The position numbers and the translations under genes are program-made. From Parasphingorhabdus sp. (GTDB lineage Bacteria; Pseudomonadota; Alphaproteobacteria; Sphingomonadales; Sphingomonadaceae), in contig JBLWTQ010000014.1 in NCBI GenBank assembly GCA_048270065.1, forward strand, positions 11,921 through 75,920: a DNA stretch of 64,000 bases, given 5' to 3'. Below, in pieces: positions 61,608 through 64,000 of the stretch; position 1 is the stretch's first letter, and each line of letters starts with the position of its first letter. The notes under the pieces are model-generated. The model made no database searches and was not told the DNA's origin. It was given only the letters and a program-made list of their open reading frames with translations.

Positions 61608-64000
61608 CCGACTTCCTGCTTGAACTGCTGTCCGAAGAAATCCCCGCCCGCATGCAGGCGAAAGCGCGCGCCGACCTCGAGCGGCTGTTCACCGAACAAA
61701 TGGCCGAAGCGGGCCTGAAGGCCGGCCCTATCACCGTCTGGTCGACGCCAAGACGACTTGCGCTCATCGCCCGCGACCTACCGGCCGAGACCGAAGCGGT
61801 CAGCGAAGAAGCCAAGGGACCACCCGAAGGCGCGCCCGATCAGGCCGTCGACGGCTTCTGCCGCAAGAATGGCGTCACCCGCGACCAGCTCGAGGTACGT
61901 GACGTCAAGGGGCGCCCGACCTGGTTCGCGGTAATCGACAAGCCCGGCCGCGACACCAGGGATGTGCTGGCAGAAGCCATCCCGGCGATCATCCGCGCCT
62001 TCCCGTGGCCGAAGTCGATGCGCTGGGGTGACGCCAGTACATCGACCGAAAGCCTGCGCTGGGTGCGGCCGCTGAGCGGCATTGTCGCGATATTGGGCGA
62101 TGATCTGGTGCCATGCGAAATTGACGGGGTGGCGTCAGGCTACGAGACGGTCGGACATCGCTTTCATCACTCCGTTCGCCCTGAGCCTGTCGAAGGGCAG
62201 CATGGCAAAGATGCTTCGACAGGCTCAGCACGAACGGAACTGGGCGGAATCACCATCGGTAACGCCGGCGATTACGCCGAGAAACTGCGCGCCTGCCATG
62301 TGATTGTCGACCATGAAGAACGCCAGAATATCATCCGCGAGGGCGCTGCCAGGGCGGCGGCGGACGCCGGCCTGCAACTGGTCGAGGACGAAGGGCTGGT
62401 GATCGAGAATGCCGGCCTGACCGAATGGCCGGTGCCATTGCTCGGCAGCTTTGACCCGGCGTTTCTGGACGTCCCCGAAGAGGTGATCCAGCTGACCGCC
62501 CGGGTGAACCAGAAATATTTCGTGTGCAAATATCCTCCCTGTGCAGAGCACGGGGAGGGGGACCATCCGAAGGATGGTGGAGGGGCCCCTCCGTCATCCG
62601 CCTCCGCCAAGGCTACGGCGGACGCCACCTCCCCATCGCTGCGCGACAGGGAGGAAAAACTGGCCCCCTATTTCGTCTGCACGGCCAATATCGCCGCCAG
62701 CGACGGCGGCAAGGCGATCATCGCGGGGAATGAAAAGGTCCTCGCCGCAAGACTCTCCGACGCCAAATTCTTCTGGGAACTTGACCAGAAGACGCGATTG
62801 GAGGATCATGCAAAGAAATTGAGCAACATTGTGTTCCATGAAAAACTGGGCACGGTTGCCGACAAGGTAGAGCGTGTGGCCAAGTTGGCCGAGTGGCTGG
62901 TTTCTTTAGAAGGGAATGGTTTTTACCAGTCCAGCCCCGGCGATACATTTCATGGTGAAGTGTCCGAGGCCGCACGTCTCTGCAAAGCCGATCTCGTCAC
63001 CGAAATGGTCGGCGAGTTCCCAGAGCTGCAGGGCTTGATGGGCGGCTATTATGCAGAGAAAGAAGGAAAGTCCGCCGCGGTCGCCAACGCGATCCGCGAC
63101 CATTACAAGCCGGTCGGGCAGGGTGACGATGTGCCCACCGATCCGGTGACGGTGGCGGTGAGTCTGGCGGACAAGCTGGATACTATTGGATCGTTCTTCG
63201 CTATTAATGAAAAGCCGAGCGGTTCCCGTGATCCTTTTGCGCTTCGCAGGAGCGTTTTAGGCGTGATTGCGATTTTAGTGGCTAATGGACTGCGAGTGTC
63301 TCTCGTTCGTTCAAGTTTGCGAGTGATTATCCTGTTGAAGGAGCAGGAACTCCGTAACATTAAAGCAGATACAGTTGGGTGGAGAGAAGTTGATTCAGCA
63401 TACCAAAAAATTGATCAAATTTTGGACGAACCCGGAATATCAGTGGATAAAGAAGTAGAGTACGTTCTTGAAAATTGGGCCAAAAGCAAAGCTCCAAAAG
63501 GTTCGTCATTGGAAATGCCTTCGCCGGAAGATGACGATGATATGGATGCCTATTTGGATGGCGATATTCCCATGTCAGAAATGTCTCTTCCGGAAAGTGA
63601 CGAAGACACGGAAGCGTATTTCGATAACGTAATTTCGTTCTTCGTTGATCGCCTCAAAGTTCAACAACGTGAAGCGGGTGTCCGTCACGACCTGATCGAC
63701 GCGGTATTCGGTGATAAAGGCGAAGATGATCTGGTGCGGCTGCTCGCCCGGGTGAAGGCGCTGCAGGCCTTTGTCGCAACCCCGGACGGCGAGAATCTGC
63801 TCGCCGGTTACAAGCGGGCTTCGAATATTTTGAAGAAAGAGGGCGGCACCAGTGCCCCTGCGGAGGCAGGGGCCCATCTCCCGACCTCTGGTCCTGACGC
63901 ACCGGTCCGTGATGGACTCCTGCCTGCGCAGGAGAACAATGTCCTTTCCTACACGCCCGAAAAAGCCGAAAAGACCCTGATCGACGCGCTCGACGCCGCT
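61604..64000 (+). CDS. glyS: Glycine--tRNA ligase beta subunit (3'-truncated by window), with in-frame repeat insertions
   Basis: Manual translation is open to the window end: [116 protein letters not shown]; SD AGGGAGG. Confidence 0.96.
   Translation, partial: [799 protein letters not shown]
62172..62237. repeat. 66-bp palindromic element inserted in frame in glyS
   Basis: 24-bp arms ccgttcgccctgagcctgtcgaag / cttcgacaggctcagcacgaacgg (22/24 complementary), 18-nt loop; 22 codons. Confidence 0.92.
62533..62655. repeat. 123-bp composite palindromic element, copy 2, in frame in glyS and inverted relative to copy 1
   Basis: Perfect 10-bp terminal IR tcctccctgt / acagggagga; 41 codons. Confidence 0.92.
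63852..63937. repeat. 86-bp palindromic element, copy 3, in frame in glyS
   Basis: Aligns without gaps to 18856-18941 and 25251-25336; read through as [29 protein letters not shown]. Confidence 0.9.

What the first reader, a model, noticed from the sequence alone, without database searches (positions are those of the whole stretch)
63181..63660. Low-GC, foreign-looking tract of about 480 bp inside glyS, including an acidic insert of roughly 90-100 aa
Seen: my hand count gives 211/480 = 44% GC for 63181-63660, versus 78/120 = 65% for 61621-61740 in the same gene. The A/T-ending codons extend into conserved motifs on both sides ([24 protein letters not shown] and [12 protein letters not shown]), with no frame break. 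The middle encodes non-repeat sequence ending in [33 protein letters not shown]. Inference: a cassette-like replacement by recombination with a lower-GC donor, using conserved GlyS motifs as homology arms. This would be a hypervariable module in an essential enzyme, possibly under diversifying pressure (for example from phage or toxins), or a neutral landing pad.
Basis: partly seen in the sequence, partly recalled or inferred. Interest (0 to 1): 0.7.

Follow-up and report, generated by a model that had tools for sequence, protein, structure and literature searches.

The report
Swappable hypervariable cassette inside glyS
The AT-rich stretch in this bacterium's essential glycyl-tRNA synthetase gene is one version of an in-frame segment that differs in every related species sampled and is exchanged by recombination, right beside the loop that reads the glycine tRNA, which is unusual for a core translation enzyme.

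Summary
Window 63181-63660 is 211/480 = 44% GC, against 62% for the rest of glyS. GC3 falls from 0.75-0.85 to 0.28-0.45, which puts it in the lowest 0.05% of coding windows in this genome.

The tract is one allele of a hypervariable cassette. It lies between two near-invariant GlyRS-beta motifs, LADKLDT and [15 protein letters not shown].

- Across 89 Sphingomonadales glyS genes the segment is 50-154 aa long. There are 59 cassettes with no detectable relative, 10 shared families and 9 minimal forms.
- None of 60 species pairs with at least 90% identical flanks shares a cassette. Yet 7 families recur in different genera, and AU tests reject flank monophyly.
- Nucleotide identity drops abruptly at both motifs.
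- Shared cassettes show pN well below pS, so they are constrained protein modules.
- Cassette GC3 is below flank GC3 in 71 of 74 species (0.50 vs 0.75). The dip covers the conserved TGSKDPFALRR arm, which in E. coli reads acceptor-stem base pairs 1-4.

This genome's allele is the longest seen and has no homologue in 5.8 billion proteins. It is modelled as three helices plus a 35-aa acidic disordered loop.

IleRS, HisRS and ValRS of this genome carry similar low-GC islands, so this is probably not specific to glyS. What drives the turnover is unknown.

The parts
61604..64000 (+). glyS, the glycyl-tRNA synthetase beta subunit. The gene continues 211 nt past the window end to a stop at 64211 and encodes 868 aa.
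   Evidence: ORF list and extension in the genome. Pfam PF02092 at E=8e-173 and DALR_1 at E=1e-9. PDB relatives 7YSE, 7EIV and 8IE2.
62729..63133 (+). Upstream flank (aa 376-510) with unusually high synonymous conservation across the genus. This is the probable 5' homology arm for cassette exchange.
   Evidence: The same-codon-given-same-residue fraction is 0.73-0.90 here, against 0.55-0.65 elsewhere in the gene. Pairwise nucleotide identity reaches 96-100% just upstream of the cassette.
63170..63184 (+). 5' boundary motif DKLDT, within the near-invariant LADKLDT.
   Evidence: Nucleotide identity between near-identical glyS genes falls from above 90% at this motif in 9 pairs. The GC3 drop starts here.
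63185..63298 (+). 5' arm of the cassette, [38 protein letters not shown]. The amino acids are conserved but the codons are AT-ending. It encodes Loop H18-19 and helix H19, which read acceptor-stem base pairs 1-4 of tRNA-Gly.
   Evidence: GC3 is 0.47 here and averages 0.50 in 75 cassette-bearing species, against 0.72 in 8 minimal forms. Same-codon fraction is 0.31-0.40. The mapping to E. coli G473, D474, D476, R481 and R482 comes from the alignment to 7YSE and from PMC9908026.
63302..63490 (+). Cassette core, aa 567-629, modelled as three helices. No relative was detected anywhere.
   Evidence: AlphaFold2 model md10fbefc1908 has helices 567-587, 593-608 and 614-629 at pLDDT 65-74. The only hit among 5.8e9 proteins is the protein itself. 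Among 1.84e9 representatives there is one hit at E=7e-6, a short-motif match to an unrelated repeat protein. No Pfam domain.
63491..63598 (+). Acidic, disordered loop of the cassette, aa 630-665 ([36 protein letters not shown]).
   Evidence: pLDDT is below 50 at residues 632-639 and 646-658. The last 44 cassette residues have 15 D+E and 1 K+R. This allele is the most acidic of 74 cassettes, with net charge -16.
63599..63673 (+). Return helix and 3' boundary motif, [24 protein letters not shown]. R683 corresponds to E. coli R531, which contacts the acceptor-stem backbone.
   Evidence: Helix 666-690 in the model. Identity between close glyS pairs returns to above 90% at DRLKV. R683 is invariant in 67 sequences.
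63181..63660 (+).
   Evidence: (211/480).

Best explanation
The tract is one allele of a hypervariable, in-frame cassette in glyS, exchanged among Sphingomonadales by homologous recombination.

The unit runs from just after LADKLDT to just before DRLKVQQRE. It has two parts:
- a conserved-protein but codon-divergent 5' arm, which encodes the loop and helix that read the tRNA-Gly acceptor stem;
- a variable core placed at the far tip of the H19/H20 helical hairpin of the HD (ATL) domain.

Crossovers fall in the near-identical block upstream and at, or shortly after, the DRLKV helix. A whole cassette is therefore replaced while the rest of the essential gene stays species-typical.

The core is translated and tolerated because it projects from a permissive hairpin tip. 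It is not needed for catalysis, since minimal forms without it exist. Within a cassette type it is still under purifying selection, so it is a real protein module and not junk.

In this genome the module is three helices plus a 35-aa acidic disordered loop, and it has no detectable relative.

Shown here: the hypervariability, the breakpoints, the phylogenetic discordance, the purifying selection, the order-wide GC3 deficit, and the structural position.

Inferred:
- Cassette lineages are older than the host genes.
- The low, nearly unbiased third-position composition arises because unlike alleles cannot recombine with each other. They would then escape whatever keeps GC3 high elsewhere (GC-biased gene conversion or codon selection).
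- The diversity may be kept by something that docks on synthetases, or it may be neutral.
For: - **Every species differs.** All of about 20 species of the genus, plus 68 other Sphingomonadales, have a different sequence and length (50-154 aa) between the same anchors, while flanks are 80-97% identical. There are 59 unique cassettes, 10 shared families and 9 minimal forms. The cassette state needs 78 changes on an 89-tip flank tree.
- **No sharing between close relatives.** 0 of 60 pairs with at least 90% identical flanks share a cassette.
- **Abrupt breakpoints.** Identity is 90-100%, falls to 60-70% in the arm and to random in the core, then returns to 90% or more at DRLKV. This holds in L059/L112 (97% identical flanks), L090/L087, L053/G021, G000/G003 and other pairs.
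- **Variable tract length.** In G021 and G011 the replaced tract runs about 200 nt further 3'. It matches a 'type II' allele of Aurantiacibacter and Qipengyuania.
- **Discordance with phylogeny.** Seven cassette families are shared across genera or families. AU tests reject flank monophyly for four pairs (p = 1e-5, 3e-5, 2e-3 and 9e-68).
- **Purifying selection.** Shared cassettes have pN 0.15-0.42 against pS 0.5-1.0. G005/G007 give dN/dS 0.20. Arm and core pS (0.72-1.0) exceeds flank pS (0.45-0.58).
- **GC3 deficit.** Cassette GC3 is below flank GC3 in 71 of 74 species (0.50 vs 0.75, Wilcoxon p = 1e-13). Third positions are nearly uniform. The 5' arm is 0.50, against 0.72 in minimal forms.
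- **Homogenised upstream flank.** Synonymous conservation is 0.73-0.90 upstream and 0.31-0.40 in the arm.
- **No donor copies.** There are no silent copies in any genome.
- **Structure.** The model and its mapping onto E. coli place the insert at the hairpin tip beside the acceptor-stem-reading loop.
- **Restricted to the order.** Outside Sphingomonadales the segment is 53-75 aa with normal GC3.
Against: - No donor for this genome's own cassette was found, so its transfer is inferred from the family pattern and not observed directly.
The assembly of this one contig is therefore unverified.
- 'Unrelated' means no BLAST similarity at E<1e-3. Very remote common origin of the cassettes is not excluded.
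- Composition differences inflate pS, so the claim that cassettes are older than their flanks is soft.
- Each species is represented by one genome, so polymorphism within a species was not measured.
- The explanation offered for the low GC3 is untested. The weak correlation with host GC3 (r = 0.40) fits several models.
Confidence: 0.8

Rival explanations
1. Conflict-driven diversification. This concerns the cause of the turnover and is compatible with the cassette mechanism. The variable modules would be kept diverse by negative frequency-dependent selection. The agent would be something that binds aminoacyl-tRNA synthetases near their tRNA sites, such as a phage protein, a delivered toxin that needs the enzyme as a cofactor, or a toxin kinase.
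For: - Turnover is complete between species with 90-97% identical flanks.
- Cassette types are shared across genera, and arms and cores are saturated at synonymous sites. This is the pattern expected of long-lived alleles.
- The same kind of low-GC3 variable island occurs in IleRS, HisRS and ValRS of this genome. Three of the four lowest intragenic GC3 windows in real genes are in synthetases, and the fourth is in a restriction-modification enzyme.
- The cassette sits beside the acceptor-stem-reading loop.
Against: - No partner or agent is known.
- No signal of positive selection was measured. Within a cassette type, selection is purifying.
- Minimal forms without any module occur 9 times, scattered over the tree.
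- The insertion point is at the hairpin end far from the tRNA.
- Neutral shuffling in a very large metapopulation could give the same pattern.
Confidence: 0.3
2. Neutral landing pad. This also concerns the cause. A structurally permissive hairpin tip accumulates insertions. Recombination between highly conserved flanks then shuffles them with no benefit. Low GC reflects relaxed constraint plus AT-biased mutation.
For: - The module can be absent (9 minimal forms) and ranges from 0 to 104 extra residues.
- Cassette composition is shifted towards amino acids with AT-rich codons: Y, S, N, F and I are enriched, and A, G and P are depleted.
- Third positions are nearly unbiased.
- Part of this genome's allele is disordered.
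Against: - Shared cassettes have pN far below pS, and dN/dS is 0.2 in G005/G007. They are therefore not free spacers.
- The model does not explain where more than 60 unrelated open reading segments of 50-100 codons came from.
- It does not explain why synthetases dominate the genome's low-GC3 islands while other large conserved proteins do not.
Confidence: 0.4
3. A one-off patch imported into this genome alone from a distant, lower-GC bacterium. This is the narrow form of the first reader's idea.
For: - The G000 arm carries unusual residues ([16 protein letters not shown] against the consensus PTGSKDPFALRRAALG).
- The tract is 44% GC in a 57% GC genome.
Against: - Relatives all carry their own low-GC3 cassettes at the same site.
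- No GlyS anywhere matches the core.
- Other Alphaproteobacteria have short segments of normal GC here.
Confidence: 0.07
4. Rapid in-place divergence of an ancestral loop, by relaxed constraint or local hypermutation, with no transfer.
For: - The site is variable in length across Alphaproteobacteria.
- Cassette cores evolve about twice as fast as flanks where they are homologous.
Against: - Genes whose flanks are 95-98% identical at nucleotide level have unalignable cores with sharp edges.
- The same cassette types occur in different genera.
- Purifying selection acts within types.
Confidence: 0.03
5. Artefact or selfish element. The tract would be a chimeric assembly join, or a decayed intein, homing element or miniature transposon.
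For: - The flanks are so conserved that metagenome assemblers could mis-join strains.
- A 10-nt direct repeat, TCGTTCTTCG, sits at both edges.
- glyS of this genus does carry three in-frame repeat-element inserts elsewhere in the gene.
Against: - The same architecture is present in closed genomes and type strains.
- The reading frame is intact.
- There is no Hint or intein domain, nor any other domain.
- There are no terminal inverted repeats and no other copies in the genome.
- The 10-nt repeat encodes the same Ser-Phe-Phe at two conserved FF motifs.
- Reads could not be checked.
Confidence: 0.03

Closest known systems
Mosaic chromosomal genes made by interspecies homologous recombination (for example penA and pbp2x of Neisseria and Streptococcus)
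   Same: Blocks of a conserved essential gene are replaced by divergent blocks. Identity breakpoints are sharp, and the phylogeny of the block disagrees with that of the rest of the gene.
   Different: In those genes the imported blocks are homologous throughout and are selected by antibiotics. Here the core of the block is non-homologous between alleles and varies in length by 100 aa. No selective agent is known.
Segmentally variable genes (Zheng, Roberts and Kasif 2004, PMC387263)
   Same: A variable region of 70 aa or more sits between well-conserved regions. That paper lists aminoacyl-tRNA synthetases among such genes.
   Different: That concept rests on comparisons between distant species and reports no general GC deviation. 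Here replacement is complete between species with 90-97% identical flanks. There is also a systematic GC3 deficit, and cassette types are shared across genera.
Homeoalleles of aminoacyl-tRNA synthetases (Andam, Gogarten and co-workers, e.g. PMC3191353)
   Same: Divergent forms of one synthetase function coexist in a bacterial group and replace each other by biased transfer and recombination (my knowledge of those papers).
   Different: Homeoalleles are whole genes of two or a few types. Here an internal segment exists in more than 60 types.
Hypervariable central domain of flagellin, and target-recognition domains of restriction-modification specificity proteins
   Same: Conserved ends serve as recombination arms around a variable, often lower-GC middle that is exchanged horizontally. 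A type IIG-like restriction-modification enzyme of this genome shows the same GC3 dip.
   Different: Those modules face known agents (immunity, phages, DNA targets). They belong to surface or defence proteins, not to a cytoplasmic core translation enzyme.
Idiosyncratic insertion modules of aminoacyl-tRNA synthetases
   Same: An extra module sits in a surface loop of a synthetase without disturbing the catalytic core.
   Different: Known modules are stable, lineage-wide features. This one differs in every species sampled.

Membership tests
GlyRS beta subunit (bacterial alpha2beta2 type) | tRNA_synt_2f domain followed by a DALR-type anticodon-binding domain | tested here: met
   PF02092 at E=8e-173 and PF05746 at E=1e-9. 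Relatives in the PDB are 7YSE, 7EIV and 8IE2. glyQ lies directly upstream.
GlyRS beta subunit (bacterial alpha2beta2 type) | Residues that read tRNA-Gly. These are Loop H18-19 and H19 (E. coli G473, D474, D476, R481, R482), R531, R585 and the F652-M658 stretch. | tested here: met
   [11 protein letters not shown], R683, YKRASNIL (R738) and FFDEVTVN are present and align to these positions. Their roles are taken from PMC9908026 and PMC10464925.
Mosaic gene made by homologous recombination | Sharp identity breakpoints between otherwise near-identical genes | tested here: met
   Nine pairwise profiles.
Mosaic gene made by homologous recombination | The segment's relationships disagree with those of the rest of the gene | tested here: met
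   Flank tree against cassette families. AU tests give p from 2e-3 to 9e-68.
Segmentally variable gene | Variable region of at least 70 aa between conserved regions | tested here: met
   The cassette spans 154 aa between anchors in G000 and at least 75 aa in 75 of 90 genes.
Intein or homing element | Hint domain blocks, an N-terminal Cys/Ser and a C-terminal His-Asn plus nucleophile, with or without an endonuclease domain | tested here: not met
   No Pfam match in the insert at E<=0.1. The insert's edges lack these residues. Alleles share no motif.
Transposable or miniature repeat element | Terminal inverted repeats, target-site duplication and further copies in the genome | tested here: not met
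   No inverted terminal repeats, only a 10-nt direct repeat that encodes SFF. No other copy in the genome. This contrasts with the three GC-rich repeat-element inserts elsewhere in glyS.
Antigenic-variation system with silent donor cassettes (pilE/pilS type) | Silent partial copies of the variable segment in the same genome | tested here: not met
   In G000 and in 127 other genomes, the conserved arms match only inside glyS.
Diversity-generating retroelement | A template repeat near-identical to the variable region, plus a reverse transcriptase, with adenine-specific changes | tested here: not met
   No second copy of the region in the genome. Alleles differ in length and are unalignable, not point-mutated. 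A reverse transcriptase was not searched for.
Synthetase homeoalleles | Two or more divergent whole-gene forms of one synthetase replacing each other in a group | tested here: inconclusive
   Replacement affects an internal segment only. The flanks follow taxonomy. A 'type II' allele that extends about 200 nt further 3' comes closest to a homeoallele.

The most novel reading that the evidence does not exclude
Core translation enzymes may carry immune-like variable surfaces. Under this reading the glyS cassette is one instance of a general class: recombination-shuffled, low-GC, hypervariable modules placed beside the tRNA-handling parts of aminoacyl-tRNA synthetases. In this genome the class would include GlyRS-beta, IleRS, HisRS and ValRS. 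According to unchecked earlier notes of this scan it also occurs in AlaRS, SerRS, TrpRS and ThrRS in other phyla. The modules would be kept diverse by an intracellular antagonist that docks on synthetases, such as a phage factor or a delivered toxin. Their low GC3 would follow from unlike alleles being unable to recombine with each other.
Probability: 0.25. Interest if true: 0.88.

Novelty: new variant of a known kind. Interest (0 to 1): 0.7.

Why it matters
Aminoacyl-tRNA synthetases are usually treated as slowly evolving, vertically informative housekeeping genes. Here an essential synthetase carries a segment that is completely replaced between species whose flanking sequence is 90-97% identical.

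The replaced unit includes the codons for the loop that reads the tRNA acceptor stem. The segment exists in more than 60 forms across one bacterial order.

If the turnover is selected, it points to an unrecognised antagonist of the translation apparatus. It would also give a direct handle for finding that antagonist, because cassettes can be swapped in isogenic strains.

If the turnover is neutral, the system is a clean natural experiment. It shows how far a protein can tolerate insertions next to a recognition element, and what holds GC3 high in GC-rich genomes. The cassette sits at near-unbiased third positions (about 0.50) inside a gene at 0.75.

There are practical consequences too. glyS, ileS, hisS and valS alignments from these groups contain non-homologous blocks, which will mislead phylogenies and ANI-type measures. 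Metagenome assemblers may also mis-join strains at such loci.

Tried and rejected
- **Homologues of the G000 core.** A word-indexed search of 5.8e9 proteins restricted to residues 560-678 found only the protein itself. A full HMMER scan of 1.84e9 representatives gave one hit (E=7e-6). It is a repeat protein that shares a short DRIDYILEKWAK-like motif, and I judged it a short-motif match to an unrelated protein.
- **Phage or plasmid reservoir.**
  - Two IMG/VR scans, one with the whole family and one with the cassette-flanking region, found nothing.
  - GenBank phage hits are distant glyS genes in phage-labelled and Salmonella whole-genome records, plus one cyanophage glyS.
  - The single sphingomonad plasmid hit carries purB, L25, TraB/GumN, glyQ, glyS and ppdK. 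That is chromosomal synteny, so it is a mislabelled replicon or a chromid.
- **RNA element, promoter or domain in the tract.** None found.
- **Internal repeats or a transposon signature.** None found.
- **Shared acidity.** I tested whether all cassettes are acidic, as a tRNA mimic might be. They are not. Only this allele is strongly acidic.
- **A universal GC3 dip.** I tested whether this part of GlyS has low GC3 everywhere. It does not. Other Alphaproteobacteria have normal GC3 here.
- **Literature.** Searches for a description of this glyS cassette found none.
- **A first HisRS alignment was partly garbled.** Loci from minus-strand matches were not re-oriented. Only the correctly parsed rows were used.
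Full report
**Observation**

The window's last gene pair is glyQ (60583-61455) and glyS. glyS runs from 61604 past the window end to 64211 and encodes 868 aa.

Window 63181-63660 is 211/480 = 0.44 GC, and 61621-61740 is 78/120 = 0.65.

In 40-codon windows GC3 drops from 0.75-0.88 to 0.28-0.45 between about 63170 and 63650, then recovers.

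I scanned 100-codon windows over about 2341 coding-like ORFs of the 3.34-Mb genome (GC 0.57). The mean GC3 is 0.68 (sd 0.072), and only 0.05% of windows reach 0.40 or less. This tract is 0.37. The frame is unbroken.

The segment holds 104 residues between positions that are 19 residues apart in E. coli GlyRS-beta.

**What relatives show**

The genome belongs to Sphingomonadales. Its nearest named relatives are Parasphingorhabdus and unnamed Sphingomonadaceae.

I collected complete glyS genes from 19 species of the same genus and two other families. I added 80 named Sphingomonadales.

Between two near-invariant motifs, LADKLDT and [15 protein letters not shown], every species of the genus has a different sequence of 57-154 aa. 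The flanks are 80-93% identical in protein.

Across 90 genes, eight have exactly the minimal 50-aa form with normal GC3. Seventy-five have 75-154 aa.

BLAST clustering of the cores gives 59 cassettes with no detectable relative, 10 shared families and 9 minimal forms (57 aa or fewer between the anchors). On a maximum-likelihood tree of the flanks, which reproduces the taxonomy, the cassette state needs 78 changes over 89 tips.

None of the 60 species pairs with at least 90% identical flanks share a cassette. This includes pairs at 95-97% identity.

Seven of the ten shared families link different genera or families. Examples:
- a Parasphingorhabdus-clade species with Novosphingobium sp. BIN1;
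- another with Novosphingobium barchaimii;
- another with Erythrobacter sp. T5W1-R.

AU tests on the flanks reject monophyly of four such pairs, with p from 2e-3 to 9e-68.

**Breakpoints**

Pairwise nucleotide profiles of close genes are 90-100% identical up to DKLDT. They fall to 60-70% in the next 100 nt, where the protein is the same but the codons differ. They fall to random in the core and return to 90% or more at DRLKV.

In two species (G021, G011) the divergent tract continues about 200 nt further 3'. It matches a 'type II' allele resident in Aurantiacibacter, Qipengyuania and Erythrobacter. So tract lengths vary, as expected for recombination.

Across the genus I measured how often identical residues use the identical codon:

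| Region | Same-codon fraction |
|---|---|
| Most of the gene | 0.55-0.65 |
| About 400 nt upstream of the cassette | 0.73-0.90 |
| 5' arm | 0.31-0.40 |

I read the homogenised upstream block as the usual 5' crossover zone, and the arm as part of the non-recombining allele. That reading is an inference.

No genome holds silent copies of the region.

**Constraint and age**

Where two species share a cassette type, the core has pN 0.15-0.42 against pS 0.5-1.0. In the least saturated pair (G005/G007), dN/dS is 0.20, against 0.07-0.11 in the flanks. The cassettes are therefore protein modules under purifying selection.

Arm and core pS (0.72-1.0) exceeds flank pS (0.45-0.58) in the same pairs. This suggests that cassette lineages are older than the host genes. 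Composition shifts inflate pS, so I hold this loosely.

**Composition**

Cassette GC3 is below flank GC3 in 71 of 74 species (mean 0.50 vs 0.75, Wilcoxon p = 1e-13). Third positions are almost uniform. The correlation with host GC3 is weak (r = 0.40).

The deficit covers the conserved 5' arm (0.50, against 0.72 in minimal forms). It hardly touches the 3' side (0.70).

A few cassettes have host-like GC3, for example the pair of sister Allosphingosinicella species that share one type. One family exists in both states (L084 high, L089 low).

No low-GC donor, phage or plasmid source turned up. Low GC is therefore a property of the cassette pool.

My preferred but untested explanation is that unlike alleles cannot form heteroduplex with each other. 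They would then escape GC-biased conversion or efficient codon selection and drift towards mutational equilibrium. The enrichment of Y, S, N, F and I and the depletion of A, G and P in cassettes fits a mutation-driven composition.

**Structure and function**

The alignment to E. coli GlyRS-beta in the tRNA complex 7YSE, read with PMC9908026, gives these mappings:
- (T/S)GS(K/R)DPFALRR is Loop H18-19 plus the start of helix H19. [quoted passage not shown]
- The R of DRLKV is E. coli R531, a backbone contact.
- The anticodon contacts (R585 and F652-M658) lie further downstream and are invariant here.

The variable core therefore sits at the far tip of the H19/H20 hairpin of the HD (ATL) domain.

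An AlphaFold2 model built on 67 sequences has mean pLDDT 82. It gives three helices in the cassette (567-587, 593-608, 614-629; pLDDT 65-74). These are followed by a disordered acidic stretch (630-665; pLDDT below 50 at 632-639 and 646-658) and the return helix 666-690.

This allele is the longest and the most acidic of the 74 cassettes (net charge -16). Acidity is not a shared trait.

The insert has no Pfam domain. No Rfam family and no promoter excess were found in or around the tract.

Minimal forms show that the core is dispensable for the enzyme's basic function. This is an inference from natural variants, not from an assay.

**Scope**

In 30 other Alphaproteobacteria the same segment is 53-75 aa with GC3 equal to the flanks. 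Two have larger inserts with a dip.

Within this genome, three of the four lowest intragenic GC3 windows in real genes are in synthetases, and ValRS follows:

| Gene | Region | GC3 in window | GC3 in rest of gene |
|---|---|---|---|
| IleRS | CP1 | 0.35 | 0.73 |
| Type IIG-like restriction-modification enzyme | aa 617-717 | 0.35 | 0.67 |
| HisRS | anticodon-binding domain | 0.36 | 0.73 |
| GlyRS-beta | this tract | 0.37 | 0.70 |
| ValRS | next after these | 0.44 | 0.70 |

Comparison with the genus shows:
- The IleRS segment between [22 protein letters not shown] and KGSQLAGATAKHPMADKF differs in nearly every species compared, at 30-90 aa, with a GC3 dip. One pair, G016 and G007, shares a type.
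- The HisRS anticodon-binding domain occurs in at least three types. This genome has a divergent low-GC one.
- The ValRS segment after WWGHRIPAW is a standard 28 aa in most species. It is enlarged and different in four species, including this one (87 aa, GC3 0.39).

Earlier AI notes of this scan describe similar cassettes in alaS, serS, valS, trpS, thrS, hisS and another glyS in other phyla. These are unchecked leads. They reached me after I had found the IleRS and HisRS cases.

**Comparison with what is known**

The mechanism matches mosaic genes made by interspecies recombination. The architecture matches the 'segmentally variable genes' of Zheng, Roberts and Kasif. That paper lists synthetases, but at deep phylogenetic distances, and reports no general GC deviation.

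Synthetase homeoalleles are whole-gene analogues. Flagellin central domains and restriction-enzyme recognition domains are the closest in dynamics.

I found no description of species-level cassette turnover in glyS. Intein, transposon, silent-cassette conversion and retroelement readings each fail a defining feature.

**Verdict**

- The mechanism of exchange is well supported (confidence about 0.8).
- The cause of the diversity is open. I put neutral shuffling at about 0.4 and conflict-driven selection at about 0.3.

Noticed in passing
G000 contig C7 (IleRS, 1016-aa frame), contig C2 from about 151.7 kb (HisRS), contig C9 from about 148.8 kb (ValRS). All lie outside the window.: Three more synthetases of this genome carry low-GC3 intragenic islands: IleRS CP1 at 0.35, the HisRS anticodon-binding domain at 0.36 and ValRS at 0.44. 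In the genus, the IleRS and ValRS segments vary in length and sequence, and the HisRS domain occurs in at least three types.
   Followed up: partly
window 62171-62245, 62528-62644 and 63836-63928: Three GC-rich in-frame inserts in glyS: [33 protein letters not shown]...[13 protein letters not shown] and [25 protein letters not shown]. They vary between species and have copies elsewhere in the genomes. One inverted copy sits in the glyQ-glyS spacer. All are modelled as disordered (pLDDT below 50). They are a different phenomenon from the low-GC cassette.
   Followed up: partly
window 62729-63133: About 400 nt of glyS upstream of the cassette is unusually conserved at synonymous sites across the genus (same-codon fraction 0.73-0.90 against 0.55-0.65). 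Part of it also has lower GC3 (0.55-0.65). I read it as a homogenised recombination arm. A nucleotide-level functional element was not excluded.
   Followed up: partly
window 63191-63200 and 63635-63644: An exact 10-nt direct repeat, TCGTTCTTCG, sits at both edges of the low-GC tract. Both copies encode Ser-Phe-Phe at the two conserved FF motifs, so this is probably chance helped by identical residues.
   Followed up: partly
G000 contig C28 (20.8 kb): This contig is 39% GC in a 57% GC genome. It may be a phage, a plasmid or a contaminant. It holds no glyS-like sequence.
   Followed up: no
G000 contig C17, frame starting at offset 45419 (995 aa): A type IIG-like restriction-modification or methyltransferase protein has a GC3 dip at aa 617-717 (0.35 vs 0.67). 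This is presumably its swapped target-recognition domain.
   Followed up: no
L197 (NZ_CP155756.1, Sphingomonas parapaucimobilis 'plasmid unnamed7', 197 kb): A record labelled as a plasmid carries purB, ribosomal protein L25, TraB/GumN, glyQ, glyS and ppdK in the chromosomal order seen in this window. It is probably a chromosome piece or a chromid, not a plasmid.
   Followed up: partly
L064 and L070: Contigs labelled Hydrogenophaga intermedia (MAG) and Rhodobacterales bacterium UBA3077 carry glyS genes that nest inside Sphingomonadales on the flank tree. They are probably mis-binned or mislabelled.
   Followed up: no
window 34290-35135: This is the only other place in the window where 480-nt GC falls to 0.46 or below. 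Another first-stage note covers it as a low-GC lipoprotein.
   Followed up: no
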